From Mesotaenium endlicherianum (Eukaryota), in NCBI GenBank assembly GCA_009602735.1, contig WELA01003501.1, positions 3,787-64,516 of the forward strand: DNA of 60,730 bases. Direction: 5' to 3'. The notes under the pieces are model-generated. The model saw only the letters and a program-made list of their open reading frames with translations. It made no database searches and was not told where the DNA came from. Every line of letters starts with the position of its first letter. Position 1 is the first letter of the stretch. Below are positions 34,481 to 60,730 of this stretch, piece by piece. The position numbers and the translations under genes are program-made.

Positions 34481-34511
<31 letters not shown>

Positions 34512-35253: not shown

Positions 35254-35286
<33 letters not shown>

Positions 35287-36821: not shown

Positions 36822-36852
<31 letters not shown>

Positions 36853-38150: not shown

Positions 38151-39953
38151 GTTCTCGTCCTCCCCCCCCCCCTTTTTCCTCCCCGGGCGTCCAAGCGGCT
38201 GGCCTCCCTGTCTGCCCTCTCTGTGTCTGTTTGGGCTGGGCTGAGGGAGGCCCACCATCTCTGGGCTTCCTTCCTTCCTTCCCGGAGAAGTGGACATCAC
38301 ATGTGCGCGCTCTCAGATGGCCAGATTTGGGGGCTTGTTGATATCGACTACCTGTCGCGAATGTTGTGGATCATTGCCATGACATTTATTGCATGCTTGA
38401 GTTGCTTGAGTTGAATGTACATTGTTCGGAACAAGTGAGGGATGGGCAAGGGGAGGGCCTTACATGCGGCTGTGTGCTGTGCGTGTATTCTGCAGAATGG
38501 ATCGCATTCCGAGGGAAGGGATGGTTCACCGCGCTCATTTTGCAGAGCCAGGCAACATGGATGTCTAGGACTAGGAGGAGGGCTAAGAGAGGTGTACGCA
38601 GAATAGATCAAGGTTACGTTCAGACAAGGTAGGCATGCGGACGCTAGGTATATATTTATCCGAGAGGGCTGTGGAAGTACGCTGCACTGCCCTAGGTCAC
38701 GAGGCTTTTGCAGGACAATCTCCACCAAGGAGCCACACCTGCTGAAGGCCCCGTTCATTCTTCTTCCTGTAAGCGTACAGCCGTAAGGCTGTATTTAGTG
38801 TGGTTAGTGTAACATATTTAAGAAGTGGTGCGCAGGTGGCCTCCTTTGAGCCGAGGCCGGTAGGGCTGCCAGCAGCCAGTTGTGATTGTTGGGACACGTG
38901 GCCAGTATGTGAAACCCAAGATGGCTACATGTACATATGTCGTAAGACACTCGTTTCACTTTATCTCGGACTGGCAGACCCTACTGCGCTGCTATGGGCG
39001 GGCTGCAAGTAGATACGTCGCCAACCTAAACGCGACAGCACACATGTAACGACCTGACTGCAATAAGAGAGACTGCAATATTGTAGTCCAATCTGCTTGC
39101 CACCGTGAACTGTCGCCTCTGCACCATGCCTACATGCCACTCCTGTCCATCTGGATCGAAAGCAATAGCAGTAGCATACATCATGTTCAATAGTATGACA
39201 TTATTTGTGATCCACGATTTATTGACAAGCTTCAGGCAGTGGATTGGCAAGGCAAGCGATGGATGTCTTTTGTTGGTCAAAAAACGTACACGTATATGCT
39301 ATGATGAAGCTGGAGGCAAGCCAATCCGTGCGTGAAGGCAACTAAGTGCAAATGAGCGGAAGCCGAAAGACCAGCATGTTTCGACCAAGTTCATGAATGG
39401 CGACAGCAGCCACGATCATTGAGGCGAAGCATTTACGCACAAACCGTCACGAGGCATGCATGCAAGCTGAGTGACGCGACATAACATAAAACTGTCACGA
39501 GCGATGGTTACGAAGCGTGCATGCATGCAGCCCGACAGGCTGTCACTCAGTCACGGCACTTTTGAGAGGAAAGAGCACGCGTGGTGCCTAAGTCTTTCTT
39601 TGCGGGCATCACTGTCGGAGCTGCAAAGTCCGACATCGACTCTTCGATGAGCCCTGCTTCCAAAAGTTTAGCGCACTTTGCTTCTATTATATCCCGTTCC
39701 ACTTTAGGGACGCTTGAAAATAGGTTTTTGTAACGGTGAGCTCAATGGTCATCTGCGAAATAGTGCTATACTGAGATTCATACTGGCACGCGCAGAACAG
39801 TCCTTGTTCCTAGCTAATATCACTGTAAATTGGGTGGCCTCTTCTTCCGTTAACTGCGATCCTAGATTCCAAGTGGGGCGCGTGGAATCCAGGACTGAAG
39901 TATCAAAAGTTGAGACCGCTAATTGCTGAGTACCTCCTGCTGTACAACTCAAT

Positions 39954-41086
39954 GTGTCTCTAGGTCGAATTTGTGACCGGCTGAATGCGGCAGAAATTGT
40001 TGCTGCAAGAGCGAGAGGGACTGTTGAGGACACTACTCAGCGGGTGGATGCCACTGCTGCTGTTGCATTTGCTAGACTCCCACCTCAGAGTGTAGATCTG
40101 GGAGCATTATTTGTGCAAATGCAATTGCGAATGGCGAGCATGTATCAGTCCCAACAGGAGGACAAAAGAATCATTATGTCTTTGCCGCGGGACAGAGACC
40201 AACTAGGTTTTCAAACCATTGGTGGTGGTGGCAGAGGGCCAAGTAAGCCTAAGCCACAACTCCCCAGGACTATGATCCTGAGGGAAACAAAAGGTATTAC
40301 CTGATCAAGTTCCTCGCTGATGTCGAGCAGTGGCTGGAGAACTACCCAGAGCTGCAGGATTACAAGAAGGTTAGGCACACTGGTGCTCTACTGAAAGGTA
40401 GTGTAGCGGACTGGTGGCTTTATTGGAAGGGAGAGCGTAAGGCTCAGCAACTCGGTGACCCTACTTGGGTAGAGTTTGTCGAGAAACTGCATGAGAAATT
40501 TGATGTCATCAATCAGCAGGAGAAAGCTATCTATGCAATGATCTCCTTGACACTGAAGCAGACCACTTTAGTTGCTGAGTATGCTCAGAAGTTCCAGGAG
40601 AACATGATGAAGCCGCCAGACTTGCCAGAGCGTTATAGGATAGGATACTTTAGGTATGGCTTGAAATCCGAAGTCTTTGGTCATTTTGCGGAAAAGAAGT
40701 ATGAAAAATTGGCTGACTTGATCCAAGACGCTGATGCCTGGGATCAGCAGCAGTTCAATCACAAGCGCCAGAGTAATACTTTGGTGTCTAAGATTGTCAA
40801 AAAGCCTTACAGTTCCTACAATGCAATTGAAAGAGACCAGGCTGAGGATGATGAGGGTGGTGAGTACGAGTATGAGTATAATGCTATACAGTCTAGAGGG
40901 AGAGGTGGTTACTCTTGAGGTGGCTATGGAAGAGGTGGTGGTAGGACTAAGCCGAGACCAGCCTCAGCAAAGTCTGTTTGCTTCCATTGCCAGCAATTGG
41001 GCCACTTCAGAGAGCAGTGTCTAGTCAAGCACCTTCCAAAGGTCAAGAGAAAGAACCAACCTTTAAAAGACAGCAACAATCAATAA
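39954..41086 (+). pseudogene. gag: D3 gag (frameshifted/stopped) with CCHC knuckle
   Basis: LLKGSVADWW, LKQTTLVAEYAQKF, FRYGLK, and CFHCQQLGHFREQC at ~40979-41020. Confidence 0.82.
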
Positions 41087-44000
41087 TCCAGTCTACTGGC
41101 TGTGAGAATGCTAGAGATAGTAAGTCGTCACTAGCTGCTCTCGTAGCAGGTATTATGGGTCCTACTAAACTGGATTCACTATGCATGCCTGACAACCAGA
41201 TAGAGGAGACCATCAGCAATATAGACCTCCAGAGAGTGCACACTATGGATGATCTTGTTCCACCTGATGTCCGACATATCTTTGATAAGTCAGGAGAACA
41301 ATGCGAAAGTCAAGAAAAGACAGTCCCCCCTATCCTACTGCATTGCATGATAGCAGGTGGGAAGGTGAGGGCATTTGTTGACGGAGGGGCGTCTCATACT
41401 TTTATCCAAAAGGACTTATTTAAGCGGCTAAGGGTGCCTAATGTCATCTAAGGGAATAGAAAAATATTCCTTGGAGATGCCTCAAGTATCCCGGGAGGAA
41501 TTATAACCAAGTCTATTGAGGTCCAATTAGGTTCTAGCATTGCAGTTCTAAGTGGAACGCTTACATTTGAGGTACTCAACACTGGCTTTTATGATCTCGT
41601 GCTAGGCAGGTCCTGGCTTAACAGACATCAAGCTGAAGTGTGTTGGAGCAGAGGTACAGTTAAAATGAGAGGAGCCAGTGATGGGCACACTAACTTGGCA
41701 CCCACCAGTGCTCTTCCTCTTTTCCTGTATGGATGGCAAATGAAGGAAAAGAAGAGGCTTCCAAAAGGATGCAAATTGCTGAATGCAAAGGAGTTCATCG
41801 AAAGCTGGAACCAGAAGGAAGACAGAAAGTTTTGTCTGCTGCTAAGAGAGGTACCTCCTTGACTCAAAGAAGTGGTGGAGAAAAAGATAAGTTCTCCGGA
41901 GCACCCTACTGCTGCAAAAATTGTTGCTCAGTATACTGATGTTTTTAATATGCCTCCAGGACTACCCCCTAAGAGGGAATTAGATCACAAGATTGATTAA
42001 TTACCTGGGAGTCAGCCACCCTGGCAACGCACTTATGGCTTGTCTTACGTGGAGAGCGAAGAGTTGAAAACACAGATTGCAGAGCTTGAGGAAAATAGTT
42101 ATATATCCCCCAGTAAATCACCTTATGGCGCACCCATCCTATTTGTTAAGAAAAAGGATGGAAGTATGCGGATTTGCGTTGATTACAGAGCTCTTAACAC
42201 AATTACAGTAAAGAACAAGTATGCTTTACCCAAAATCTAGGACTTGCTTGATACCCTGTTTGGTGCCAAAGTATCTAGTAAGATAGATCTCAAGAGTAAT
42301 TATCATCACATCAGAATTGTTGAGGGAGATGAACACAAGACTGCCTTCCGCACACGTTATGGACACTATGACTTAACGTGATGCCATTCGGACTGACTAA
42401 TGCTCCTGCAACCTTCATGGGTGCTATGAATGACATTTTCAGACCTTACCTGGACAAGTTTGTGCAAGTCTTCCTGGATGATATTTTAATTTTCTCTAAA
42501 GATGAAGCTCAGCATGTTGAACACTTAAAGACAATCATAAACACTCCGAGAAGAAATCAGTTATATGCTAAAATGAACAAGTGTGATTTCTTTAAAGATA
42601 GTATTGAATTCTTAGGCCACGTTGTCAGCAAAGAAGGCATCTGTGTGGATCCTAAGAAAGTCCAGACCATAAAGGACTGGCCAGTACCACAGTCTGTCTT
42701 TGAAGTTAGATCCTTCTTTGGGTTGGCTAACCACTACAGGAGCTATGTTGAGAATTGTTCTACAAAGGCCAGTAAATTGACTGACCTTACTAAGAAAGAC
42801 ATAGGGTATGTGTGGGGGGAAGAGCAGCAGGCTGCCTTCCAGACCCTTAAAAATGCTCTTTGTTCTGCCCCAGTCCTAGCCGTGTATGACCCCAGCAAGC
42901 CTGTGTAGGTGATTACTGATGCTTCTGACTTTGCCATGGGTGCTATTTTGTTGCAGCCTACTGACAAATCCACAAAGGATGGTAAGGTACTGCAGGAGTG
43001 GCACCCTGTGCTGTATGAGTCTATGAAATTCAACCCAGCTGAGATTAATTATTCTCTGCATGATGAAGAGCTGCTTGCTATCATTCATGTGCTCACACAG
43101 TGGGGAGCATACTTACATGGTAAAGCTTTTAAGGTGATCACAGATCATCTAGCTCTGACTCACTTTCAGAAGAAGTCCAAGCTGTCGAGGAGGGAGAACC
43201 GCTGGAGCCAGATGCTGCAGTTCCAAGTCCAGATTGACTACAAACCAGGGAATTTGAATCCTGCTGATGCACTCTCTAGAAAACCTGACTTGCAAGAAAG
43301 GAACTTCAGTCAGCATGCTGTAGTTAAGTTCTTTGTGCACTCACTTCACTCAAGGTCAAAAAGTCCTTCCTTGAACAACTTAGAAAGGCCTACCTTTCTG
43401 ACCCAACATTTGAGCACAGTTCCACGAATGGTGTGTGTCCTGCTACTGCACTCGGGTATAGGCTTAAGGGAGGGGTTCGGGTGACTGAAACCGCTTCAGG
43501 CAGAATGAAGCTGGTCATTCCTAATAACTTGGAATTAAAGTCACTCTTATTGAGTCAGGCACATGACAGTTTATTGGGTGGGCATTTGGGGCAGGCCAAA
43601 ACTGTTGGCAAACTGGCAAAACATTATCATTGGGATGGGTTGCCTCGGGAGGTCTTGAAACATGTTAAGTCTTGTGATCAGTGCCAGAGAAATAAGCCTA
43701 GGCACACACCACCCGGGGGTCTTTTATAACCACTGCCCATATCAGCGAGACGCTGGGAAACAATATCTATGGACTGGGTGGTAACTCTACCAAGAACTGC
43801 CAATGGGCATGATTCGATACCGGTAGTCGTGGATAAATTGACAAAAATGGTCAATTTCATCCCCACAACTGTCAAAGTAACTGCACTCAAAATTGTGAGA
43901 CAATTCTACAACCATGTAGTATGCCAATATGGGCTACCCTCTAATATCATCTCAGACAAAGACTCAAAATTTACCTCTAAGTTTTGGAGAGCTTTAATGG

Positions 44001-44870
44001 GGCTAATGGGAGTCAAACAGCTGCTCAGCACAGCAAACCACCCTCAGACTGATGGGCAGACTAAAAGAACTAACCGAGTTCTGCAGGAGGTGCTGAGAGC
44101 ATATATTAACCAACAACAAGATAATTGGAATGACCTGTTGCCTCAAATTCAATTTGCGGTCAACAGTGCGGTGCACGCGTCAACGGGAAAGACCCCTTTT
44201 GTACAGAGTCTGGGTAGAGTCCCTAAGTCTCCTTTAGATGTGCTAGGGGAGTCTTTAACTCACTCTGAGGGGATTGACAATTCCGTGTCTCTCCAGTTAA
44301 CTCAGGTTTTTGCCAATACCTTGTCAGAAGTCCAGTGAAACCTACACACAGTCCAAGAAAATCAACAAAAATACGCAAATCAACACTGTCGAGAGCTGAC
44401 ATTTTCTAAGGGCGATTTGGTCAAACTGCATTCTCAACACCTGTACCTGCCTGGTGTGGTCAAGAAAGAGCTTGGTCCGATCTGGGTCGGTCCATACTCG
44501 GTGGTGCGCCGTGTCGGTCAGAATGCTTACAAACTGAACATGTCAGCGGAATACAAGGGTCACCCAGTCTTTAATGTCTCGTTCCTGGAACCGTACATCA
44601 AAGGTGACACACTGTTCATAGGTCGGTAACCTGTCCAACCGGGACCGGTGCCCGCTGTCAGAGATGGTGACCCTGAGGAATATGAGGTCGAGGACATTTC
44701 AGACGCTCGCTTTGTCCGTCGATCATCTAAATATGTCATGAAATATCTGGTCCGATGGAAGGGTTACGATGCCTCTGGGAATACTTGGGAGTTTAAGGAC
44801 CATTTGACCAATGCCAAAGGGGCGTTGGAACGGTTCCACCTTCGGGTGGTTGATTCACCTCCCGAACTGT
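41062..44870 (+). pseudogene. pol: D3 pol (PR, RT, RH, INT, chromodomain), many stops and frameshifts
   Basis: ORF fragments from 40978..41451 to 44648..44971 give the Gypsy domain order; chromodomain EYEVEDI…YLVRWKGY…NTWE. Confidence 0.93.
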
Positions 44871-45253
44871 CATTTCAGTTGACATGGGAAGGTGACAGGA
44901 GATCCTGTCTCCATTTAAGTTGGAGGGAAAAATACATGGCAATTAGTGTGCGACAAAGGGACAATTTCTGAATCCTAAATGTCAGCATAGTGACAGATGG
45001 GACAGCCTGGCCCACATCAAGCAACGTTGGCGGAATGAAAAAGGGACTCGCACAGCAATACATCACCTAACTCACCCTACACACATTCATGCGTTTATTT
45101 TTAATCGCACCGCAGCTACGTAAACTCCTAGCAATCACCCTGAAAGGTAAACGGGAACAATCTACCATAGTAATACAAACTTGCTTCCCTTCCTGCAACT
45201 CCTGTGACAAAGATGGAGATCCTACTAATTGGTGCCCTGGTTACATGTACAGG

Positions 45254-46920
45254 ATGGCTCCCACCACACAAAAGGAAGACTGAAAGCGCAAGGCAAAAGA
45301 AGCCAGGAGGACTATGGAGCAATACCAGAAAGAGCTGGCGGCGACGTCCCTCACCAGGAGAGAACAAGAAAGGGTCCGCAGACAACAAGAGGCGGCAGAA
45401 GAAGCACAGAGGAAGAAGGAGCAGGAAGCGGAAAACCTCAGCAAAGCTGAGGAGGAGAGACAGAAGAAACAACAAGAAGAAGCGGCGGCGGCAAAGGAGG
45501 AGAGAAGAAAAAAGGCTGAAGCTGATAGGCATAAGAGCTTGGCCACTTACAGATATACTGTGGTGGGTGGCCAAACCTTTGATAACCTGAAGGAAGCAAA
45601 ACTAGCAGCCCAGGAAATCAACAAGCTGGAACAGACAACACTTCTACAGAGGGAAGAAGCTGAAGCACTGGATAGGTACATTAAGACACACACTGGTGTG
45701 GTCCTTTACAAAGCTTATGCCAAGATGGTGGGCTATACAGCAGAGCAGGTCCGGTACCTTGCAGCTGAATCGGAGAACAAGCCAATTCCGCTATGGGGAA
45801 TAGTAGGAGATAAGAGACTCATCAGGATGGTGAGCATGCGGCCCAATAGCTTTAAGGATACGGTAATACACCTCACACTACTGCAAACTTACAATGAAGT
45901 TAAGAGGAGGAGCCAAGAGTACTTGGCCAAAGAAGAAGAACTCCAAATGTTCTCTCCCCACTGGTTCCCTTGTAAGCTGAAAAAGGCTGAGCATGGACCA
46001 CAGTACTACCAGCAACCCCCAGGCTGGAGGTGGATGACCATCACCAACAAAAAGCAGGAGTGTGACCGAGCCTAACCAAACGACTTCCACTATGGACTAG
46101 ACGGCTACCTCATCCTACTACCTCACATTGCCCCGTGGGACCCCAGGCTGAATGGCTGCCTGAGTGATATAAATGCTGAGACCAAAGAGCACAGGAGGAG
46201 GGGGAGAGACTACTTCTCTAAGGGGAAGCATGCCTTTGTCAAATGGGCGAAGAATGCAGGCCGGATAGATATCAGCAGGCTGAAGGCCAAGCATCCTCCA
46301 GCTCGTCCTAAGAAAGGGAGGTCAGTAGATTTCTCCATGTCTACCAGGAAGCAGGATGACTCGGTGGACGAGACTCCTACCCTCTCAGAGGAGGAAGATG
46401 AGGAGGATGAGGAAGAAGAGAAGCATCAGGATCTGGTACTCAGGAGACCCAGGGGCAGGCAAGAGCAGGGTTTCCTAAGGAGCCAAGATCAGGTGTATGG
46501 AATGTGACCCCGATCATGGAGGCAACAGTTCCCGCACTTGCTTCCCCAGCCCACCTGCCCAAGCAGGGGCAGAAGTTGATCTGACTGTATTTGGCAGCAG
46601 ACAAAGGCAAAATCCCCGAGAGGACAAGGGTGCCAGAAGAGGGACACGCGGGGTGGCCAGAGGTATGCCGGCCTCCCCCTTTGCTCACGAACATGTACTT
46701 CTTGCCAATGTATTTCAGCATCCTATTAGAATGCCTGCCTATGTGGGGATCAACACCCAGGTGGTTGAAGAGCAGGCTACAATCCTTTGTTCTCCTCAAG
46801 GTCCGACTTTAGAACAAACAGGGTTCTTTAAAAGGCCAGCTGACAGACCTACAGGGCTGTCCAAATCTAGGTCCAGATCTCAGTCTCCTGATCCTGAAGT
46901 CCCAGGGACCAACCCCCTAG
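45254..46920 (+). pseudogene. Family D ORF3, type 1, full-length but disrupted copy (~555 codons)
   Basis: ATG at 45254 (MAPTTQKED*KRKAKE…); ORF 45314..46075 is a charged coiled-coil followed by the conserved core; it continues past a stop at 46073 as HYGLDGYLIL.PHIAPWDPRL…; ORF 46497..47036 carries the C-terminus. Confidence 0.82.
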
Positions 46921-47661
46921 ACATCAAAACATCCTCCAGTCAAGCCTTGCTGGAGGTCTCTCTGTTTGCACCCCACAACGGCAGTGGACTGAGGGTAGAG
47001 GTGACACCTCCCATCACTAGTAATCCCCACGGCTAGGCAACAGTGTTGAAGCAAGAGGCAGGCGGTGGGGGGTTAGTCCTGTTAAGTTCCCTGACCCAAT
47101 ACTTCTGCAGTTTAATGTTGTCAAGTCGACAACAAGTTAAGTTGGAGGGATTGTAATGAATCAGTATATTGATAGGTATAATATTCATTTGAATATAATA
47201 GTTAACTAAGTTCAGCCTGCTGAACTTTTATTAATATACAATCTGCTGGACATAATGAAAATATCAGTTTAATGACTCAGTCGGAAGCAGCAGGCTGAAG
47301 TCAACTTAAGTCAGCTTGCTGACACATTCTTTGACAGCCAGCTGACTTCCGTATTCGGTAGCAGCGAACAGCCTAGATATGCATTTAAGTGTGATATGCT
47401 AGATGAATGGCCAGATGACATCCTTAGGATGGATGGCGATTCGGGATGATGGGAGATGGCGGTGGATTTGGTTAACCGAGGTCCTACCAACGTGGTTAAC
47501 TCCCGGGTAGGCGGTGCCATCGCACTTGCCGTTGAACAGTAAACTCATTCCATGTACATATGCTAGGTATTGCTCTCGAGTTCGGCATTTGGAAACGAGG
47601 CCAACTCTCTGGTACAGCTTACTAAGAGGTATTTGAATCCAAAGCGAGAAGCCATTGATAT

Positions 47662-48405
47662 TAAAAGGGGCAGAGTGCCCTAGTGGAAGCGTAGTGACTC
47701 ACGAGGAAAAGAACTAGTCGCAATCATACTAAAGAGTGCAGCAGCATATCACTAAGGAAGCTTGGGAAAATTACTTGACATTTTGACTGGCAAGAGATTG
47801 CTCACAAATAAACTAGGGTGAAAGGCCTTGTCATTACAAACCCGTAGAAATTTACAGATGTGAGAACTGATAAGAAACAAAGAAGTTATACCTATTTATA
47901 ACTTTCTGCCTAAGTGCTCCTCTCTAGGAGGAAGCTACGGAATTTCTTAAGTGTGCGTCAAATCGTCCCTTCCAGAACATTCGTGAGAAGGCCAGATCAA
48001 TCTCATCTGACGTGTTGGGTCGAATTGACGTCCACATACATGCATCGACATTACTAGAATATTCTATCTTAGAAGCGCTAGGCTAAATCGAAACTTCTAG
48101 GTCAATCGACCTAGTCGGCACTCCGCGTCAGCCGAACTTACGTGAAGGTTCGAGTTCATTCTAACGGGCCAGATCGCTCGACGCTGTCGGTCAATCCGAC
48201 GGTCGCGCTCACCGCAATTTAAGGACAGTCGTCAACCAACCTCAAAACTAATTAAACTTCGAAAATCCATAACTCTCTCAATACTTGACCAAATTCGATG
48301 AACTTTTTATCAAAATTACCACAAAAATGGACTCTATACGAATATACAATCAAAACATACTTTCATGAAACTCAAAAATGCACTTTATAAACCTATGACC
48401 TTACA
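47662..48405 (-). mobile_element. Family B solo LTR inserted in the D3 LTR
   Basis: Single B LTR flanked by perfect TSD GATAT (47657-47661 / 48406-48410). Confidence 0.95.
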
Positions 48406-48618
48406 GATATGCACTGTCTTCTAGCCTTGCTTATGTATGAGTTTACTGATTGCATTACTCATGCTAGTTTACTTACATTGACTTGCGGGTATTGTCCACT
48501 GCTAGTAAGTTGTCTTTTGTTGTTTTATCAAGTAACAAAAAATACCATAGAGATTACTTGCTGATATAAAGATCTTCATTAATTGTTAATCGCTTATTTG
48601 GTAAGTCGATTCATTTCA

Positions 48619-49633
48619 GCTGTCCAGATCCAGGTCCAAATCTCAATCCCCTGATTTTGGGGCTCCAAACACATCCACGTAGATCTTAAAACCATCCTCC
48701 AGTCAAGCCTTGCTGGGGGTCTCTCTGTTTGCACTCTACAACGGAAGTTGATTGTGGGTGGAGGTGATAATTCATCATCACTAGTGATCCCCACAGCTAG
48801 GCAACAGTGATGAAGCAAGAGGCAGGCGATGGGAAGATCAGTATTGTAAACCTTCTTAACACATAGCTTTACAGTTTAGTGTTGTCGAGGCGACAACAAT
48901 TTAAGTTGGAGGGATTGTAATGAATCAGTATATTAGTAAATATGATATTCAATTAAATATAATAGCTGATCAAGTTCAACCCGCTGAACTTTAGTTGATA
49001 TTCGATATGCTGGACTTGTAAGGATAATCAGTATAATGACTCAGCCGAGAGCAGCAGGCTGAAGTCAATTTAGGTGAGCTCGCTGACACATTCTTTGACA
49101 GCTAGCTGACTTCTTACTCGGTAGCAGCGAACTACCTAGTCATGCAATTAAGTGTGATATGCTAGATGAATGGCCAAATGACAACTTTAGGATAGATGGT
49201 GATTTGGGATGATCGGAGATGGCTGTGAATTTGGTTAACCAAGTTCCTACCAACGTGGTTAACTCCCGGGTAGGCGGTGCCATCGCACTTGCCGTTGAAC
49301 AGTAAACTCATTCCGTATACATAGGCTAGATATTGCTTCAAGTTCGGCATTCGAAAACAAGGCCAACGCTCTTGTATAGCTCACTAAGAGGTATTTGAAT
49401 ACAAGGCGAGAAGCCATTGTTGCTAACTATTTTCTGACTTTGCTTATGTATAAGTTTACCGATTGCATGATTGATGCTTGTTTACTTGCGTTTGATTGGT
49501 GAATTATTGTTCACTGCTAGTGTATTGTCTTTTGCTGTTAAATCAATTAACGAAAGGTACCATAAAGACTGCTTGCTGATATGAAGATCTTTTATTAATT
49601 GACAATCGCCTATTGGTAAGTTGATTCATTTCA
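48619..49633 (+). mobile_element. D' subfamily 3' end, second copy (LTR 48916-49633)
   Basis: Same junctions and sequence as 27351-28366. Confidence 0.87.
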
Positions 49634-49787
49634 AAACGGGCTGAAACAAGAGTACTATTGGAGGAATATGGACAAGGCCATTGAGGAGTGGATCAAGAGT
49701 TGCGATGCGTGCCAGCGGAACAAGACACCAGATCAAAGGAAAGGAGGTACATTGCAGCCTTTGTCTATTTCATAATATCATTGGAAG
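49634..49787 (+). pseudogene. pol: Family B integrase fragment interrupted by D4
   Basis: LKQEYYWRNMDKAIEEWIKSCDACQRNKT; matches 28367-28530. Confidence 0.85.
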
Positions 49788-50585
49788 TGAAATGAATCGA
49801 CTTACCAAATAGGCGATTAACAATTAATAAAGATCTTTATATCAGCGAGTAATCTTTATGGTAATTTTCGTTAACTGGTTAAACGGCAAAGGACAACCCA
49901 CTAGCAGTGAATAGTACTCGTAAGTCAAATGCGAGTAAACTAGCATCAATAATGCAATCAGTAAACTCATACATAAGCAAGGTTAGAAGATAGTGCGTAT
50001 CAATGGCTTCTCGCCTTGGATTCAGATCTCTCTCAGTAAGCTGTACAAGAGAGTTGGCCTCGTTTCCGAATGCCGAACTCGAGAGCAATGTCTAGCGTAT
50101 GTACATGGAATGAGTTTACTGTTCAACGGTCAGTGCGATGGCACCGCCTACCCGGGAGTTAACCACGTTGGTAGGACCTCGGTTAACCAAATCCACCGCC
50201 ATCTCCCATCATCCCGAATAGCCATCCATCATAGGGATGTCATCTGGCCATTCATCTAGCATACCACACTTAGATGCATATCAAGGCAGTTCGCTGCTAC
50301 CGAGTACGGAAGTCAGCTGGCTGTCAAAGAATGTGTCAGCAAGCTGACTTAAGGTGACCTCAGCCTGCCACTTCCGGCCCAGTCATTAAACTGATATTAA
50401 GTATAAAGTCCAGCAAACTGATTGTTAACTAAAATTCAGCAGGTTGAACTTATTTAACTATATTATTTAAATGAATATTATATCTACCAGTATACTGATT
50501 CATTACAATCCCTCCAACTTATCATGTTGTCGCCTCGACAACACTATAACAGCGTGCCGTCCCTCTTATCCCCAGCCTGCTGCCC

Positions 50586-53500
50586 TTAGGAGGGAGATGT
50601 CCCTGAGGCCCTATGCTCAGTGGAGCCAGACCTCCTCCTGTCTTGGGGTCTTTTGAAGCCTGTCAGAGAAGGGGGTTCCGTGTAAGGACCCGGCAAAGAA
50701 CGCAGTAACTGGGCTGTTTCCTCCTGCACAGTCTGAAATTGAAGGGAGGCAGCCTTCTCCTGTGCAGCCCTCAAACTGACAGGTACGTATACCGGCATCC
50801 CGGAAGGATGTTGCATGACATGAGCCAAGGGTACATGCCCTCTCTGCGAGGGAGATGCTGGCAGGCCTCTGGCTATCTCCCGAGCAGCCCTCCTGTCTGC
50901 CCTGTCTGACTGGGTCTCCTTGCCTGGAGATGGGCTCTGTCCTCTGGCAGTCCCCAGCCAAGTGATATCCTCCTCTTGAGCGAGTTGCGGCGGGGCCCAC
51001 CCCGTCTTCTCCCTTACAGGGGATGTGGCAGGTGTCAGGATCACGGCGGGGCTAGTGTCCTCCTCCTCGCCTTCCTCCTCGTCTTCCTCCGACTCCTCCT
51101 CCTCGCCGTCCCCGGGTTCCTCTGAGACTTCTGGGGTCTCCTCTGTCCGCTGCTCCAGCTCTTCCCGAGAAAAAGAATATCCTACTGACCTTCCCCTTTT
51201 GGGTGCTGGTGGGGGCTGCTGAGTCCGGACCGCATAGAGGTCCTTTTCCCCCTGCTTACTTGCCCATTTGGCATAAGCGTGCTTCCCTTTGGAGAATGAC
51301 TCTCGGGCCCTGCTTCTGTCCCCCTGCATCTCTTGGCTCATGCAGTCTCTGACTCCATCCAATCTTGGGTCCCAAGCCGCAATGTGAGGGGGCAATACTA
51401 TGTTCCCCTTTAGGTCTGTCAGGAAATCCTCATCCGTCGCCCTGTCATTCTGCTGGTCCCTCATGTTGATGGTCATCCACCGCCAATCAGTGGGCTTTTG
51501 GAAGAAGGCAGCGTCTGTCTTTTTGAGAGTACAAGGGTACCAGTGCCCTGCAAAGTCCAGCTAACTGGTTTCTCTGGCCAAGAATTCCCAGCTCCTCCTC
51601 TCCACCTCATTGTACATGGCCTTTTACCTATTGTGGGGTGTTGAGTCCTTGAAGCTGTCCGCGTCCATGGGGATCATCCTGATGACCCTATGAAATGAAT
51701 CTTGCTTATTCAAGATTAATATATTTCATTTAAATATAAAAGATCAGAGATAGGTGGAAGCGTGTGAAATCAGGGAGCGATCTTCGCCCTTATAATGAAT
51801 TCTGTTTACTCATCTATAGCCCTTGACTCACTTATCGTAGTGTGCCATAATTGCACACGAATACAAGGCACAAGAAAGAGGCGAGCTTGAGGACTAGAGC
51901 TTCTCCTTTAGAAACTCCTAACCTCTTGCCTACCAGGCATACAAGCATGTGTAAGCACATTCACAACATCAGGGGACTGAATAGCAAAGGTGCTCTCATT
52001 CAGATGACCATAAAGTAGCTCAAACTCATCCCACTGACTTAGGTGCAAAAACCATGGAATCTGTCCGCTGTGTGACCCCAAAATTTTTAGAGAGCATAAC
52101 TCTGTTAATACTACTCCAACTTGAGCAAACTTAACGGCAACGGATGCATCTTGACGAGACCTTTCCGAAAAGTCCTAGTTCGCTCCAAATGAAGCGCAAA
52201 CGAATTAGCCATGGCAATTTCCGTGAAGGCTGGTCATTAGAACGAACCCAAAAAGTGCACACATCACTTGCAAGTAGAAACCCGATTGTAAAGCCTGCTG
52301 TCCAGAACGAGGGACCACGAGATCCCAGCCTGCTATGTACCTAGTGACCACCTGGTTGACCACGGCGCAAGGTGCGCCGTTTCGTGGGAAACCCGTTAAG
52401 TTGGGACCCACGGATCTAGGTATAACGACCATATTAATTGGTCGGTTGACTGAAGTCCTAACTGTTCAGTTGACTGACGACGGCTCCGCCTACCCAGGAG
52501 TTAACCACACTGGTAGGACATCGGTTTACCGAATCTCAGTCGACCTCCCGACTTTCAGTATACTTCGGTCACATGTGCCAATCCACAAACAACAATCTAA
52601 ATGAATATGTCTATCCTCTGCGTACTGAAGCTAAGTATATTGACTAATATCAAGCGAGCTTACTATATGTCAACCTACTGATATTTTATCCTATATATAA
52701 CTGATATATAAATCTCAGCAAATCACACTATGATATAAAAGTCATCCTGCTGACCTTTTCAACATAGTCAGCAGACTACACTTTGGTACCAAAGTCATCC
52801 TGCTGACCTTTTTGACAAAGTAAGTAAACTCGCATTACATCGACATACATTCATTTAGATGAACTCGCACATGTGAGTATATAGACATAATACTTATATA
52901 GTGTTATATTTATATATGCAATTAATTAAATAAATAATGAACTGATTCATTACAATCTCCCCAACTTAAATTGTTGTCGCCTCGACAACACTCAGCATAT
53001 GATACTTTTATTTAATAATACACTTCAGTCAACTAGGTGAAGCAAAGCAAGCAAACAAAACATGAGCGTGACATATTCACCTACCCAGTGCAAGTAAAAA
53101 TCAATCACAACAAATTGTCATGCAAGCAACCATCTGACTTCACAGTCATTAACTGAAGACATGCATGGACTTACCCCTACTCACAATAGTCCTTCCGGTT
53201 GAAAGACATAATAGAGCACCTCACACCATGCAAACCACACCCAAATCAAACAGCCTCCTTTCGAGGTCAAATAATGAAAGAATGTTATTAAAGCTCAGCG
53301 TACTGAACTAAGCCTTTTCTCCTTCTCTTGGTCTTCAACTGCTGCTGTGCTCCCACCTTGAAAGCTCCTCACAAGCAATTTCTTGTGACTTAGGTACCTG
53401 CTCAAAATTCAGCGTACTGAAGGAAAAGAGAGACCAACTGGTTTGATGGCATTGAATGCCCTCACAAGAAGAGTAACATCAGGTTAATGAGCCGATGAAA

Positions 53501-56500
53501 ATTTTACATTTTAACCACATTTTCAGAACACTCTAAGTTCAAAGAAACATATGGTTTTGAGCAATATGCTGGTCACCTCAAGCAGTTCCCTGATGTGTCA
53601 TGCATCATTGCTACCCAATCCAACTTATGGCAATGTACTTACTCAATTAGTACGTACACTTGCTCCAACAGTGTACCGCAACTCACAGTTTACACCAGTC
53701 AGTCACTGATGCTCCTGATATTAATGCAGTACATACATAGGACGTGGCAGTGTATGACTCAGTTAGTACATACACTTGCTGCTGAGTATGCAGGTAAGCA
53801 CAGCTTACTGAATACTCCTAATACACATCCCATCTCCCTCTCTCCAACTTAAATAGCTGTCGACTGGACAACTTTAACCACATAAGCACACCAAAAAGTG
53901 CAAACACCCAAGTAAGCAAAAAAAGAAAGAAAGTGCCCCCCTCCCAAAAAAAAAAAAATAGTCCATTTTTCAAAATTAGATCAATGACCGGAGTGGCTTA
54001 GGGAAGAGTGTACTGCCATTCAAACCCTCTCACCACAAAGCTCTATCCATGAATAACCTAAACTCAAGCCAGCGTATTACATCCCTCCATTCGAAAGTGT
54101 AGATAGCTTGCTATGAGATGAAGACAACCGGCCCTGTTAGCAAGTTTATCCATACCAAAAAGTAGCGCAGTTAGCTGACTCTACCAATGCTTACATACAA
54201 TGACTCATACTGGTCATTCCTAGCAAGACATACACCAAAATGACAACCACCCAATGGTGAGAGTCAACAATCAAACAGAAGAGGGACCAGAAACAACCAA
54301 CTATCATAGTTCTGATGTTTCAAGATACTCCCTCCTTCAGACCGTACTGCCTGAAGTTGCCCAGAGGACAGGTGGGGAAGCGTCACGTGGCAGCGTCCAG
54401 CATGCCAACTCCTCGGCCTCTCTCGACCTGTATGCACCATCGCTTCACACTCTGCTTGCTGGTCTCAGTCTGTTGAACAGACAACAAACAAGTGTGTAAG
54501 TTGCCTTCAATGAGCTTAAGCTACGCGTGGCAAACACCACACCCTAGCTGCATCAGTCTACTCAAGGTCTGATGACTCCATCTTACATAGTTCCCGGGAG
54601 GGTAAGGCAAACATTGGGATCACAAAGACAACCAATGACAATGGACAAACGCAGTATAGCTCAAAACCCAGTTCCTCTCTAAAGGCACATACATGGCACC
54701 TATTGTAATTGCAGCAAGCACCTAGCCAATGACAACAGCGTGCATAGATCCCTGGTAAGACTTTCGCACTGTAACCCCAAGCTAGCAAGAAGAATGTTTG
54801 TGCATCGGATTGAACAAGATCATTCAAGCCATGCATTGCGAGAACGTCTATAATGTCGATGGTCTCTTCTGTCTTTACTTAGGTGTGCATAGTGAATCTA
54901 TTACAGCAGGGCCCATTTTACACCTGCTCTACGGTATGCTAATGGCGATCCACTACCTCTAGCACCCGGGATGCAAATTCCATGCACCTGACGCATATAC
55001 AAATGCATCTTGCATGCTACCTAGCATGCGCCTCTAGCGAGCTCAGTTAGCTTCGAGGCCGGCAGAAACTTAGCACACTGCTAATATGCCCAGATCGTCC
55101 CCATGACGAAGACACAAACCTCCTTACACTTGACCGAGTGTACAGGTGGCATCCAAAAACAAATAGCCAACTGGACCTAAGGCAAGTAGTCAAACCCCCT
55201 CTAGTATCCACGTTGACTTTCCATACGTCAGTCAACACACCGTACAGACCTAAGTCTCGATATGCTCATCTTATCTGATTATCTCGCTAGCTATGACGAG
55301 CCACAATCCCACAGTAAGACATGTCACGCACCAAGCATGGCAACACCAAGAGCTCGTTCAGCTCAAGCACTCAAAGTACTCATTGATCGCGGCTGCTCTC
55401 GGACACTTAACCTTTAATAAGTCATGCGAACTAAAGAGAGTTAAAGGAAAGTCCTTGCGTTCATAAACCCAAGCCCTTAAACCCTTTAACCACATTAGGT
55501 CAAATAATCCAGCAGACTGACTTAACCTAAGTCAGCAATCACATAAGATCCGCATCCAAAAACCTCTGCACACTGACTAGACTTATCTTAAGCTTAAACC
55601 CCAAGCTCCTACGATCCATCAAGTATCACCAAAGCACCGTCTCACACATAGCATTCAAGCACAAGGCACGTACCCTAAACCTTCCAGCCCACGTCAATGT
55701 GGCAAACGAGAGGAGCACACAATGTTACAGCCATGGTTGGGAATAAAGGGTATCTGTAGGATGCCATTGTTGCTGTGGAAGCCTCTTCTCATAGAAGTTG
55801 CAGCATGCTGAAGCTTGTGGACGACGTAGTGCACTTGGACCGTGGTGGCGAAAACCTGTCGTAATCCATACTTGGAAACTTAAGTTAGTAAATCATGTGT
55901 GCACGCACTGTCTCAATTGCTCAACACATGCAGCCATACCCAAGCTCCCTCAACCGAACTGCCACACAACTAATGAGAGAGGTACGTCTCTTGCAAAGCA
56001 ACAAGCTTAAACTTAAAGGGATAGCACAACAGACCAACAAGTCCTCTAGCACCGTTGGAGTGCACACCCCTCTCTATACTAGCCGTGGATTGCATATAAC
56101 AACACACAATGACTATGATCAAGTGAGGTAAATGAGTCATATCCAGCTTGCTATGATGCAACTCCCTTGAGGCTGCCCTTGATGCTTGCAGACACCTCTT
56201 CCATCAAGCCTCCACTTCAGGCTTCTCGTTGCGTGTAACTGTACACAAGAGGCTAGGAAAGTCAAGTTAGTATGCCGCATAGTACACTGAGCCAAGAGAC
56301 ACACTAGGTGAGCAAGTGGAAGGATCCTGGACAGGATGTGCAATGCTCTACATCATACACTTCCCAAGCTCCACCTAGACTCATCATACCACACAAGTAA
56401 GCCTCACACACTTACCTCATGAGACAAAGAAGACAAGCACGGACATTCAAGAAAGGACTTAGCTCCGATACCACTGAAATGAATCTTGCTTATTCAAGAT

Positions 56501-58158
56501 TAATATATTTCATTTAAATATAAAAGATCAGAGATAGATGGAAGCGTGTGAAATCAGCGAGCGATCTTTGCCCTTATAATGAATTCCGTTTACTCATCTA
56601 TAGCCCTTGACTCACTTATCGTAGTGTGCCATGATTGCACACGAATACAAGGCACAAGAAAGAGGCGAGCTTGAGGACTAGAGCTTCTCCTTTAGAAACT
56701 CCTGACCTCTTGCCTACCAGGCATACAAGCATGTGTAAGCACATTCACAACATCAGGGGACTGAATAGCAAAGGCGCTCTCATTCAGATGACCATAAAGT
56801 AGCTAAAGTCCTAGTTCGCTCCAAATGAAGCGCAAACGAATCAGCCATGGCAATTTCCGTGAAGGCTGGTCATTAGAACGAACCCAAAAAGTGCACACAT
56901 CACTTGCAAGTAGAAATCCGATTGTAAAGCCTGCTGTCCAGAATGAGGGACCACGACATCCCAGCCTGCTATGTACCTAGTGACCACTTGGTTGACCACG
57001 GCGCAAGGTGCGCCGTTTCGTGGGAAACCCGTTAAGTTGGGACCCACGGATCTAGGTATAACGACCATATTAATTGGTCGGTTGACAGAAGTCCTAACTG
57101 TTCAGTTGACTGACGACGGCTCCGCCTACCCAGGAGTTAACCACACTGGTAGGACATCGGTTTACCGAATCTCAGTTGACCTCCCGACTTTCAGTATACT
57201 TCGGTCACATGTGCCAATCCACAAACAACAATCTAAATGAATATGTCTATCCTCTGCGTACTGAAGCTAAGTATATTGACTAATATCAAGGGAGCTTACT
57301 ATATGTCAACCTACTGATATTTTATCCTATATATAACTGATATATAAATCTCAGCAAACTACACTATGATATAAAAGTCATTTTGCTGACCTTTTCAACA
57401 AAGTCAGCAGACTACACTATGGTACAAAAGTCATCCTGCTGACCTTTTTGACAAAGTAAGTAAACTCGCATTACATCGACATACATTCATTTAGATGAAC
57501 TCGCACATGTGAGTATATAGACATAATACTTATATAGTGTTATATTTATATATGCAATTAATTAAATAAATAATGAACTGATTCATTACACCCTATCTGC
57601 CCCCCAGATACCAGGAATCGAGACAGCTCCTGCTTCGTTCACTTGGACCATTGCCTTGGCCTCTCCGATGGTATATCCTACCATCCTGGCGTAATCGTGG
57701 TAGAGGAGAAGCCCTGTGCTGACCTCTATATACTTGTCAAAGTTTTCGGATGTCTCCTCTTCCTTCTGGAGGATTTCCTTATGCGACTCACTGCGATTTC
57801 TCTGGGCATACTTAAAGGCCTCCTCCAGTAGATCAAAGCCCTTGCCCAGCACCGTGTAGCGGTAGCTGCTGATTCTTCTCTGTTCTTCTTCTTCAGCCTG
57901 CTGCTTCCGCTTCTCCTCAGCTTGCCTCTCCTCCTCTGCTTTCTTTGCCTACTCTGCCGCTTTTCTGTCCATTTCTTCCTGCCTCAGTCTGGCCTGTTCC
58001 TCCTCCTCCTTCTTCTTCTGTGCCTCCCGCTGTTGTTGGAGTCGTTGTGATTCCCGAGCGGTGATGGAAGATGATTCGATGTCTCCACGGAATTGCAAGT
58101 ATTCTGCATGTGCCTCTTCCGCCCTTCTCTTCCTCTTGAGTTCCGACTTTTGAGTCAT
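50586..58158 (-). pseudogene. Family D ORF3, type 2 (58158-57596 joined to 51690-50586 = 556 codons), split by element E, three in-frame stops
   Basis: Removing E and one TSD restores the frame (…IWGADR-VIRMIPMDADSFKD…YNEVERRSWEFLARE…HWYPCTL…WRWMT…PPHIAAWDPRL…FSKGKHAYAKWA…GHVPLAHVMQHPSGMPVYV). Confidence 0.85.
51691..57590 (-). mobile_element. Family E non-autonomous LTR element (LARD-like), complete, 5.9 kb
   Basis: LTRs 51691-52954 and 56475-57590 near-identical except a 148-bp indel; perfect TSD CCCTA (51686-51690 / 57591-57595); PBS 56458-56473; PPT 52955-52970; 3.5-kb interior with no recognisable gag/pol. Confidence 0.93.
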
Positions 58159-58482
58159 CCTGCTCAATCATAAACACAATGCAGTTAGTGAAGTCATGAT
58201 ATTTTGCCGCTACTGAGTGCCCTTGATGAAGAGGGACGCGATCGGGAGAGTTCCTAGAGTGGAATACCTGGTGTGAGCGAATATAAGGAAAAATTGTGTT
58301 GGAGAGCAAGTGAGTGTGAGCGCAGGTTGAGTGGGTAATATGGTGATCAGAGACTACCACTCCCTCCAACTTAAATTCAAAGGTGGGCTGCCTGTCACAA
58401 CTGTCACTAACTGTCACATCTCCCTCCAACTCATATAGAAATAGGACCTCCTGTCACCTTCGCGTGTCAACGGAAATGACTG

Positions 58483-60730
58483 TTAGGAAGGTGCCCCAGC
58501 CGCCCGAAGGTGGAACCGTTTCAACGCCCCTTTGGCATGCGTCAGCTGATCTTTAAATTCCCAAGTGTCCCCAGAGGCATCGTAACCCTTCCATCGGATG
58601 AGGTACTTCATTACATATTTAGACGATCGACGGACCGAGCGAGCGTCTAAAATCTCATCGACCTCATATTCCTCAGGGTCGCCGTCACGGACAGCGGGGA
58701 CCGGTCCCGGTTGGACAGGTAACCGACCTGTGAACAGTGTATCACCTTTGATGTACGGTTCCAGGTAGGAGACATTAAAGACGGGGTGACCCTTGTAGTC
58801 TGCTGACATGTTTAGTTTGTAAGCATTCTGACCGACACGACGGACCACCGAATATGGACCGACCCAGACAGGGCCAAGCTTTTTCTTGACCACACCAGGG
58901 AGGTACAGGTGCTGAGAATGCAGTTTGACTAAATCCCCCTTGGAAAATGTCAGTTCCCGACGGTGTTGATTAGCGTATTTTTGTTGGTTTTCTTGGGCCG
59001 TGTGCAAGTTTCGTTGGACTTCTGACAGGATGTCAGCAAACTCCTGAGTTAACTGGAGGGAGACCGGGTTGTCAATCCCTTCAGGGTGGGTTAAAGATTC
59101 CCCTAGGACATCAAGAGGAGACTTAGGGACTCTACCCAGGCTGAGTTCAAAAGGAGTTTTGCCCGTTGACGCGTGCACCGCACTGTTGACCGCAAACTGA
59201 ATTTGAGGCAACAGGTCATCCCAATTATCTTGTTTTTGGTTAATATATGCTCTCAGCACCTCCTGCAGAACTCGGTTAGTTCTTTCAGTCTGCCCATCAG
59301 TCTGAGGGTGGTTTGCTGTGCTGAGCAGCTGTTTGACTCCCATTAACCCCATTAAAGCTCTCCAGAACTTAGAGGTGAATTTTGAGTCCCTGTCTGAGAT
59401 GATATTAGAAGGGAGCCCATGTTGGCATACTACATGGTTGTAAAACTGTCTCGCTGTTTCGAGTGCAGTCACTTTGACAGTTGTGGGGATGAAAATGACC
59501 ATTTTTGTCAGTTTATCCACGACTACCAATATTGAATCATGCCCATTGGCAGTTCGTGGTAGTGTGACCACCCAGTCCATACATATAATTTCCCAGCGTC
59601 CAGCTGGGATGGGCAGTGGTTGCAAGAGACCTTCGGGTGGTGTGTGCCAAGACTTATTTCTCTGACACTGGTCACAGGACTTGACATATTTCAAGACCTC
59701 CCGGGGTCACCCCTCCCAATGATAATGTTTTGCCAATTTGCCAACAGTTTTGGCCTGCCCCAAATGTCCATTCAGGAGACTGTCATGCGCTTGACTCAAA
59801 AGGAGAGACCTTATTTCCAAGTTATTAGGAATGACCAGCTTCAGCCTGCCTGAAGTGGTTTCAGTCACCCAGACCCCTCCCTTAAGCTTATACCCGAGTG
59901 CAGTAGCACGACACACACCAGTAGTGGGGCTGGGCTCAAATGTTGGGTCAGAAAGGTAGGCTTTCCTAAGTTGTTCTAGGAAGGACTTTTTCACCTTTAG
60001 TGAAGTGAGTGCACACAGGACTTCATCTACAGCATGCTGACTAAAGTTTCTTTCTTGCAAGTCAGGTCTTCTAGAGAGTGCATCACCAGGATTCAACTTC
60101 CCTGGTTTGTTGTCGATCTCGACTTGGAACTGCTCCAGCATCTGGCTCCAGCGGTTCTCCCTCCTCGACAGCTTGGACTTCTTCTGAAAGTGGGTCAGAG
60201 CTAGATGATCTGTAATCACCTTAAAAGCTTTACCATGTAAGTATGCTCTCCACTGTTTGAGTACATGAATGATAGCTAGCAGCTCTTTATCATGCACTGA
60301 GTAATTAATCTCCGCTGGATTAAATTTCATAGACTCATACAACACAGGATGCCACTCCTGCCGTACCTTACCATCCTTTGTGGTTTTGTCAGCAGGCTGC
60401 AACAAAACAGCACCCATGGCAAAGTCAGAGGCATCAGTAACCACCTGCACCGGTTTGCTGGGGTCATACACGGCTAGCACTGGGGCAGAACAAAGGGCAT
60501 CTTTAAGGGTCTGGAAGGCAGNNNNNNNNNNNNNNNCTGCTCCTCCCCCCACACATACCCGATGTCTTTCTTAGTAAGGTCAGTCAGTTTACTGGCCTTT
60601 GTGGAATAATTNNNNNNNNNNNNNNNNNNNNNNNNNNNNNNGTAGCCAACCCGAGGAAGGATCTAACTTCAGAGACAGATTGTGGTACAGGCCAGTCCCT
60701 TATGGTCTGGACTTTCTTAGGATCCACACT
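58483..60730 (-). pseudogene. pol: D4 pol 3' part (RT end, RNase H, integrase, chromodomain); one frameshift near 59700 and N gaps
   Basis: TDASDFAMGA; HDSLLNGH…CDQC; MDWVV…SDRDSKF…ERTN; GPY; EYEVDEIL…YLIRWKGY…DTWE. Confidence 0.94.

What the first reader, a model, noticed from the sequence alone, without database searches (positions are those of the whole stretch)
45254..46920. Chromovirus carrying a conserved, non-env third gene (ORF3) of unknown function between pol and the 3' LTR
Seen: four family D copies (24548-25615, 25812-26401, 45254-46920, 50586-58158) carry a sense-strand ORF of about 555 codons after the chromodomain integrase. Layout: E/K/R/Q-rich N-terminal coiled-coil; an aromatic-rich core (YRYTV.G..FD, Y..YA.MVGYT, YNEV.RRS.E.LA.E, HW[FY]PC.L, WRWMT, PPHIA.WDPRL, FSKGKHA[FY].KWA); a basic PK[KR]GRSV.YS segment; an acidic tract; a motif G[ML]PASP...GHVPLA.V.QHP.GMPVYV; and an S/R-rich tail. 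There is no obvious signal peptide or transmembrane helix. Known: extra ORFs are familiar in Athila, Tat/Ogre, SIRE and errantiviruses, whereas chromovirus pol normally ends close to the PPT, as it does in family B here. Inference: motif conservation across two very diverged variants implies purifying selection on an accessory, possibly nuclear, protein (anti-silencing, RNA/chromatin binding or particle trafficking). I do not recognise the domain.
Basis: partly seen in the sequence, partly recalled or inferred. Interest (0 to 1): 0.88.

Follow-up and report, generated by a model that had tools for sequence, protein, structure and literature searches.

The report
Swappable third gene in chromovirus retrotransposon
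A jumping gene of the Gypsy type carries, after its usual genes, a real extra gene of about 555 codons that matches no protein found in our searches and comes in two very different versions on near-identical backbones; it likely encodes a nuclear helper protein, but every copy in this window is broken or cut short and its job is untested.

Summary
Confirmed, with corrections. A sense ORF3 of about 555 codons lies between the chromodomain integrase and the 3' LTR. All four window copies are broken or truncated, and two are probably one duplicated insertion. It was under purifying selection: 46 of 66 differences between two type-1 copies are at third positions, dN/dS about 0.13-0.15 (hand count). 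New here: (1) types 1 and 2 are only 38-52% identical in protein, with synonymous sites near saturation, while their pol (about 89%) and LTRs (about 92%) are close; (2) the divergent block starts at an internal copy of the polypurine tract and ends at the terminal one, so ORF3 behaves as an exchanged cassette; (3) both types have a predicted 106-108-nt intron ending one base before the ATG, not yet seen in RNA. No homologue, domain or reliable fold was found, but the family's integrase also has no database relative above 47%. RNA over ORF3 is scant. Extra 3' ORFs are a known kind, and this scan has noted unrelated ones in chromoviruses of other genomes. Function is inferred only: a nuclear accessory regulator.

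The parts
39932..44868 (+). gag-pol of the type-1 carrier (5'-truncated, no 5' LTR; many stops and frameshifts); Ty3/gypsy order ending in a chromodomain
   Evidence: Pfam hits Ty3_capsid, protease, RVT_1, RT_RNaseH, rve; about 89% identical to the type-2 carrier's RNaseH-integrase-chromodomain (hand estimate); RNA reads of other copies continue differently upstream of 39932
44915..44928 (+). internal copy of the polypurine tract just behind pol; left boundary of the ORF3 cassette
   Evidence: identity to the type-2 carrier collapses right after it
45147..45252 (+). predicted 106-nt 5'-UTR intron (GT, branch site 45223-45229, CAG) ending one base before the ATG
   Evidence: not among the RNA joints shown
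45254..46920 (+). ORF3 type 1, full span but broken (stops at 45281-45283 and 46073-46075, 13-nt deletion near 46420, single-base indels)
47117..47151 (+). short palindrome plus terminal PPT; right boundary of the cassette
47152..48618 (+). 3' LTR, interrupted by a solo LTR of another family (about 47662-48406)
48619..49634 (+). 3' end of an older family member (last ORF3 codons, 3' UTR, PPT, LTR) into which this copy inserted; paralogue at 27351-28367
24548..25610 (-). ORF3 type 1, open but 5'-truncated; PPT 24437-24450, LTR about 23675-24435
25812..26401 (+). ORF3 type 1, 3' fragment behind an LTR end, one frameshift; PPT 26618-26631 and LTR to 27350
58483..60730 (-). RNaseH-integrase-chromodomain of the type-2 carrier (runs off the window)
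   Evidence: PF17917, PF00665, PF24626, PF00385 E 3.2e-9
58361..58434 (-). two internal PPT copies behind pol (58421-58434 and 58361-58374)
58160..58267 (-). predicted 108-nt 5'-UTR intron ending one base before the ATG
57591..58158 (-). ORF3 type 2, 5' part (stop at 57949-57951)
51691..57590 (-). nested non-autonomous LTR element with 5-bp target duplication, splitting ORF3; not part of the cassette
   Evidence: joint 51684-57590 without it in runs X8, X5 and one X16 read
50586..51690 (-). ORF3 type 2, 3' part (stops at 51624-51626 and 51561-51563)
49788..50522 (-). terminal PPT (50509-50522) and 3' LTR (49788-50507) of the type-2 carrier

Best explanation
ORF3 is a selected third gene between pol and the 3' LTR of a chromodomain Ty3/gypsy element, present as two deeply divergent versions on near-identical pol and LTR backbones, likely swapped as a cassette between two PPT copies, likely expressed from its own spliced RNA, and predicted to be a nuclear accessory regulator that helps the element stay expressed. 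Steps: (1) shown: coding constraint, position, two versions (about 0.95). (2) Inferred: recombination between co-packaged RNAs exchanges the whole block from the internal PPT to the terminal palindrome-PPT; plus-strand priming at the internal PPT could favour switching there (about 0.8 for exchange, 0.4 for the PPT's causal role). (3) Predicted: a subgenomic or internally initiated RNA loses a 106-108-nt intron to place the ATG near its 5' end, while the genomic RNA must keep the intron or it would vanish from new copies (about 0.65). (4) Inferred, weakest: the N-terminal coiled coil oligomerises, the aromatic core (about residues 95-345) binds nucleic acid or chromatin, and the basic, acidic and RS-rich tail carries nuclear-import and protein-interaction motifs; the protein acts in trans on the family's transcription, silencing or RNA processing (about 0.45).
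For: Selection: hand count, 45k copy against 24k copy, 170 codons (one stop codon left out): 66 differences at positions 1/2/3 = 8/12/46; about 23.5 nonsynonymous and 42.5 synonymous; dN/dS about 0.13-0.15 assuming 23-25% synonymous sites. Core indels between the types keep the frame. Not a one-off: copies without the nested element exist, and in DNA run X1 the 8 bins over spacer and ORF3 have summed depth 103,000-470,000, against 325,000-724,000 over gag-pol and 11,000 in the flank bin (the tool warns this is no copy number). Exchange: pol about 89% and LTR about 92% (hand counts; 98% over 300 nt) against ORF3 38-52% protein identity, with 36 of 67 conserved non-Met/Trp codons synonymously different (hand count). 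The switch is sharp at the internal PPT. The PPT 11-mer occurs 9 times against 0.06 expected: 6 before LTRs, 3 just behind pol. Intron: the specific pattern matches twice, both at ORF3 starts; a generic intron pattern matches 35 times in the window (24 expected), so both acceptors falling one base before the ATG is unlikely by chance, in spacers that otherwise do not align. Nuclear role: KRK/KRKRR near the N-terminus, PK[KR]GR, acidic tract and S/R-rich tail in both types. Known accessory ORF products of Grande and Tekay are nuclear or predicted nuclear (PMC7264820, whole main text; PMC11728184, passages).
Against: No intact copy in the window. No homologue or domain, and both AlphaFold models are unusable (mean pLDDT 39.6 and 42.8), so step 4 has no direct support. 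RNA over the ORF3 core is scant: depth 0 in X12, at most 2.6 in X15 and X18 for type 1; 0.72/0 in X13 and 3.55/4.82 in X16 for the type-2 core bin. The predicted splice joint is not among the 15 and 15 joints shown (140 and 23 not shown), although the type-2 bin had depth 10-15 in X16 and an X5 contig crosses that stretch without gaps. Most stranded reads on pol look antisense. The specific intron pattern was written after seeing the sites. All rates are hand counts. The exchange argument rests on one pol pair and a few LTRs.
Confidence: 0.45

Rival explanations
1. ORF3 works outside the nucleus like caulimovirus P6/TAV (a gene behind pol on its own RNA; translation transactivator and inclusion scaffold) or like a particle-trafficking factor.
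For: Same position behind pol, similar size and an N-terminal coiled coil (P6 features recalled, not from a call). Two caulimovirus transactivator/viroplasmin entries are among 50 rows of the viral fold search, ranks 10 and 21. The best-predicted part of the model is a beta-hairpin plus helix (pLDDT 51-62).
Against: Those rows have E 1.1 and 1.6 and probability 0.02-0.04 on a poor model. No Pfam match to a caulimovirus domain up to E 10. The RS-rich tail and basic motifs point to the nucleus.
Confidence: 0.2
2. The cassette is the 3' end of a second element, or a captured host gene, fused behind the original PPT; it is kept for a benefit unrelated to regulating this family, and the intron is an inherited relic.
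For: A palindrome-plus-PPT end, like a normal chromovirus terminus, survives right behind pol. An intron is easiest to explain as inherited from a cellular gene.
Against: No host or TE homologue found, no poly(A), no TIR or short TSD. A sense intron would be lost on retrotransposition unless its retention is selected. This origin does not exclude the best explanation.
Confidence: 0.17
3. No exchange: types 1 and 2 are ordinary subfamilies in which ORF3 and its spacer simply evolved much faster than pol.
For: Accessory TE proteins evolve faster than core ones (PMC13547354, passages).
Against: Synonymous sites are near saturation in ORF3 (36 of 67) while about 11% of all pol sites differ between the same two elements. 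A type-1 and a type-2 carrier have LTRs about 92% alike, and the boundary is sharp.
Confidence: 0.12
4. ORF3 is an env-like membrane protein, as proposed for Athila, SIRE and errantiviruses.
For: Position, sense orientation and a predicted splice acceptor just before the ATG resemble env genes (PMC7264820; PMC7197481 passage on Athila ORF2).
Against: Charged N-terminus and no hydrophobic run long enough for a membrane helix in either type, by eye.
Confidence: 0.04
5. Chance or low-complexity open frame with no coding function.
For: All window copies are broken and RNA is scant.
Against: 46 of 66 differences at third positions; E 5e-72 between types whose flanking spacer does not align.
Confidence: 0.02

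Closest known systems
Sense additional ORFs between pol and the 3' LTR (aORF-3S / eORF-3'F) of plant LTR retrotransposons: Athila, Bagy2, SIRE (PMC7264820, whole main text; PMC6317226, passages and section 9)
   Same: Position, orientation, length above 250 codons, no recognisable homologue, probable splicing.
   Different: The carrier is a chromodomain element, not Athila/Tat or SIRE; no membrane helix; two divergent versions on one backbone between PPT copies; the predicted intron has a local donor.
Chromovirus additional ORFs: Tekay 5'aORF (PMC11728184, passages) and 'add. ORF' in fungal Gypsy elements (PMC2864245, figure legend only)
   Same: Chromovirus-type carrier; conserved orphan protein with helices, disorder and predicted nuclear signal (Tekay).
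   Different: Tekay aORFs lie 5' of gag-pol. The position of the fungal one was not seen. No comparison with their sequences was possible.
Grande gene23 and other antisense aORF-3R (PMC7264820)
   Same: Accessory gene between pol and the 3' LTR with its own transcript and a nuclear product.
   Different: Antisense, and in non-chromovirus lineages.
VANC anti-silencing proteins of VANDAL DNA transposons (PMC13547354 and PMC11728184, passages)
   Same: Functional model only: fast-diverging, coiled-coil-bearing accessory TE protein acting in trans.
   Different: No Pfam similarity; DNA transposon; activity here untested.
Central polypurine tracts of Ty1, EVADE and lentiviruses (PMC7197481, passages)
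   Same: An internal PPT-like tract that could prime plus-strand synthesis.
   Different: Here it is an exact copy of the terminal PPT placed at the pol end, bounding an accessory cassette; priming untested.

Membership tests
Chromovirus (Ty3/gypsy) | gag, protease, RT, RNase H, integrase in Ty3/gypsy order | tested here: met
   40253-44335 (+) and 58486-60510 (-)
Chromovirus (Ty3/gypsy) | chromodomain at the integrase C-terminus | tested here: met
   PF00385 E 3.2e-9 in 58486-59706; the type-1 carrier aligns across it; nearly all of the 120 listed integrase relatives carry PF00385
Chromovirus (Ty3/gypsy) | RT/RH/INT tree placement in a chromovirus clade (Chlamyvir, Tcn1 and others) | not tested
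   no tree was built; the script machine was lost
Chromovirus (Ty3/gypsy) | paired LTRs, PBS and target duplication of an ORF3-bearing element | not testable with these tools
   no ORF3 carrier has its 5' LTR in the window and no genome is held
aORF-3S / eORF-3'F | sense ORF of at least 250 codons between pol and the 3' LTR | tested here: met
   2 of 2 pol-bearing family copies in the window
aORF-3S / eORF-3'F | present in most copies of the family | tested here: inconclusive
   summed DNA depth over type-1 ORF3 is of the same order as over pol but is not a copy number
env-like ORF | membrane helix or signal peptide | tested here: not met
   by eye; no predictor available
env-like ORF | spliced subgenomic mRNA | tested here: inconclusive
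Known eORF or anti-silencing domains (PMD, Transposase_28, Athila ORF1, VANC-associated DUFs) | Pfam domain match | tested here: not met
   0 families at E 0.01 for 6 of 6 ORF3 pieces; only unrelated sub-threshold rows up to E 10 for 4 core members
Caulimovirus P6/TAV | hybrid-binding (Cauli_VI-type) domain by sequence or fold | tested here: inconclusive
   no Pfam row; fold rows at E 1.1 and 1.6 on a pLDDT 39.6 model
Independent nested insertion | own TIRs, poly(A) or short target duplication around ORF3 | tested here: not met
   the only flanking repeat is the PPT itself

The most novel reading that the evidence does not exclude
An LTR retrotransposon family keeps two ancient, interchangeable accessory-gene alleles as a PPT-bracketed, intron-regulated cassette that recombines onto one pol/LTR backbone; each allele encodes a new nucleic-acid-binding fold that counters host silencing, the retrotransposon counterpart of VANC, kept diverse by conflict with the host.
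Probability: 0.12. Interest if true: 0.85.

Novelty: new variant of a known kind. Interest (0 to 1): 0.52.

Why it matters
The function and origin of extra ORFs in LTR retrotransposons is an open question (PMC7264820, PMC6317226). This family offers a natural experiment: two very different alleles, both descended from selected sequence, on nearly the same backbone, with visible cassette ends and a predicted expression route. If the nuclear-regulator reading holds, it would be an anti-silencing or RNA-regulating factor of a retrotransposon with a new fold. The internal PPT copy also suggests how chromoviruses can gain genes behind pol.

Tried and rejected
Homologue searches of ORF3, all empty: 5.8-billion set with the type-1 core (0 of 1238 candidates at E 0.01) and with the alignment on longer proteins (0 of 7989 at E 0.1); 1.84 billion representatives (0 at E 0.001); metagenome contigs (0 of 264; 0 of 275 pattern hits); viral contigs (0 of 41); phage records; PDB sequences (one row, E 0.6); Pfam, PHROGs, NCBIfam. 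Control: the integrase's best relative among 120 listed is 47% identical, so close relatives are unsampled and the blank is weak evidence of novelty. The ESM Atlas gave no answer for this protein. No RNA holder listed. Read piles over the acidic tract come from unrelated transcripts (loose ends) and were discounted. Run X8, labelled as another organism, has 85 of 272 laid contigs at 99% or more, so it is not evidence of spread to another lineage. The split-LTR layout reported elsewhere in this genome was considered for the tandem LTR-tail-LTR ends and rejected, since the second tail and LTR are diverged. A coding exon upstream of the predicted intron was rejected for type 1 (in-frame stop within 10 codons). 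Literature: searches listed no paper on a 3' sense chromovirus ORF with exchanged alleles; only the listings were seen for papers not cited. The REXdb supplements, which tabulate eORFs per clade, could not be read and may list chromovirus eORF-3'F cases. No whole genome, tree or computed dN/dS was available.

Full report
Setting. The window is a nest of Ty3/gypsy elements around one GC-rich, intron-rich host gene. No genome is held and scripts were unavailable, so identities, codon counts and dN/dS marked 'hand' were counted by eye on tool alignments. The host is probably a streptophyte alga. This is an inference from gene style, from Closterium being the only eukaryote named among the integrase relatives, and from an unchecked note on this genome.

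Observation. It has stops at codons 10 and 274, a 13-nt deletion and single-base indels; the GMPASP...GHVPLA motif and S/R tail follow in another frame. The type-2 copy starts at 58158, is interrupted at 57591 by a 5.9-kb LTR element with a 5-bp target duplication, resumes colinearly at 51690 and ends at 50586, with 3 internal stops and no frameshift. Its two pieces add up to 556 codons with the stop. The uninterrupted form exists: joint 51684-57590 is seen in one X8 contig, two X5 contigs and one X16 read. The 24k copy is open but lacks its 5' part; the 25k copy is a fragment. The 25k and 45k copies share the same downstream block and flank and are probably one duplicated insertion.

It is a gene. 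BLASTP between the 24k copy and type 2 gives 135 of 339 identical, E 5e-72. The core is 47-52% identical between types, its N-terminal half 38%, and 87-88% within type 1. Between the 45k and 24k copies, over 170 codons (one stop codon left out), the 66 differences fall 8/12/46 on codon positions 1/2/3, giving dN/dS of about 0.13-0.15 (hand). Some of the nonsynonymous changes arose after insertion, so true constraint was probably stronger. In DNA run X1 summed contig depth over spacer and ORF3 (103,000-470,000) is of the same order as over gag-pol (325,000-724,000) and far above the flank bin (11,000). The tool warns this is no copy number, but a rare insertion would not give it.

It behaves as an exchanged cassette. 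The two carriers' RNaseH-integrase-chromodomain regions are about 89% identical (1860 invariant columns of 2349, about 180 of them in the spacer; hand estimate). The LTRs of a type-1 carrier (24k) and the type-2 carrier are about 92% identical apart from a 52-nt duplication (hand). In ORF3, by contrast, 36 of 67 conserved non-Met/Trp codons differ synonymously, which is near saturation (hand). Identity drops abruptly about 60 nt after the pol stop and returns at the palindrome before the terminal PPT. The left boundary is a copy of the PPT: the 11-mer occurs 9 times against 0.06 expected, 6 times before an LTR and 3 times just behind pol (44918, 58421, 58361). So the ordinary chromovirus 3' end survives behind pol, and the spacer plus ORF3 lies between it and the working PPT. 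That recombination swaps this block is inferred. A causal role for plus-strand priming at the internal tract is an analogy to central PPTs (PMC7197481, passages).

Expression. In both types a GT donor, an ACTAAY branch site and a CAG acceptor define a 106- or 108-nt intron ending one base before the ATG (2 matches, 0 in 100 shuffles, pattern written after seeing the sites). A generic intron pattern gives 35 matches in the window against 24 expected, so the shared register is unlikely by chance, and the surrounding spacers do not align. RNA does not confirm it. Type-1 depth there was 0, 0 and 0.24 in three runs. In X16 the type-2 bin had depth 10-15 and no such joint is among the 15 shown, 23 not shown; an X5 contig crosses it unspliced. 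ORF3 core depth is low in all five RNA runs laid. Stranded reads on pol are mostly of the orientation expected for antisense RNA, with two GT..AG joints antisense to pol (60189-60396, 60236-60396). The family looks largely silenced in these samples.

What the protein is. Nothing matched in the sequence, profile, locus and structure searches. AlphaFold models had mean pLDDT 39.6 and 42.8, and fold searches on the first gave nothing significant. The control matters: the integrase's closest listed relative is only 47% identical, so a fast-evolving accessory gene would be an orphan anyway. From anatomy alone I commit to a nuclear trans-acting regulator: coiled coil, folded aromatic core, conserved basic motifs, acidic tract, a short conserved motif in a disordered tail, an RS-like end, and no membrane helix by eye. 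This is inference (about 0.45). A caulimovirus P6-like cytoplasmic role is the main rival; it rests on position and on two non-significant fold rows, and the P6 features are recalled, not from a call.

Comparison with what is known. Sense ORFs between pol and the 3' LTR are a described kind (PMC7264820, whole main text). REXdb found eORFs in 3372 Ty3/gypsy elements in 314 groups, with only 21.4% of all eORF proteins similar to a CDD domain, and associates them mainly with the OTA lineages (PMC6317226, passages and section 9; supplements not seen). Chromovirus aORFs are described as 5' (PMC11728184, passages), and an 'add. ORF' appears in a legend for fungal elements (PMC2864245). PMC4408406, PMC3350952 and PMC5890265 (passages) showed nothing like ORF3. 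Seven literature searches listed no report of a 3' sense chromovirus ORF with exchanged alleles. This scan's unchecked notes describe extra 3' ORFs in chromoviruses of other genomes, none similar in sequence.

Verdict. A real, selected, undescribed accessory gene: a new variant of a known kind. The cassette architecture and the predicted intron are the new and testable parts; the function remains inferred. Interest 0.52.

Noticed in passing
window 51691-57590 (-): Non-autonomous LTR element with the same LTR termini as the ORF3 family, LTRs nearly identical apart from a 148-nt indel, a PBS resembling the initiator-tRNA type (recalled motif), a decayed stretch resembling the family's gag-protease junction, no long ORF, and its own internal PPT-like copy at 53839-53852.
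   Followed up: partly
window 58096-60396 and 43500-45030: RNA reads on pol look mostly antisense, with GT..AG joints antisense to pol and an inversion joint 58096-59723 in three runs; possibly expressed rearranged copies or a source of double-stranded RNA.
   Followed up: no
window 25620-28366, 47152-49634, 51691-57590: Family LTRs or related elements are inserted within the ORF3 or 3' region of older family members at three distinct sites, which may reflect a local insertion preference.
   Followed up: partly
window 25812-28530 and 46330-49787: Old duplicated block (ORF3 tail, LTR, older tail, LTR, shared integrase-fragment flank), about 92-93% alike over 300-nt stretches.
   Followed up: partly
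window 33400-38150 (+): GC-rich host gene with many short microsatellite-rich introns; amino-acid permease-like (PF13520, E 1.8e-4, below cut-off).
   Followed up: no
window 47662-48406: Solo LTR of another family, inverted, inside the 3' LTR with a 5-bp duplication; related copies near 4330-4921, 10452-11189 and 15874-16616. It draws the highest RNA depth in the region.
   Followed up: no
window 24280-24345 (LTR of the 24k copy): Tandem duplication of about 52 nt near the LTR 5' end, absent from four other LTRs.
   Followed up: no
window 60512-60642 and 25617: 48 N bases in the window, nearly all in two runs inside the type-2 pol.
   Followed up: no
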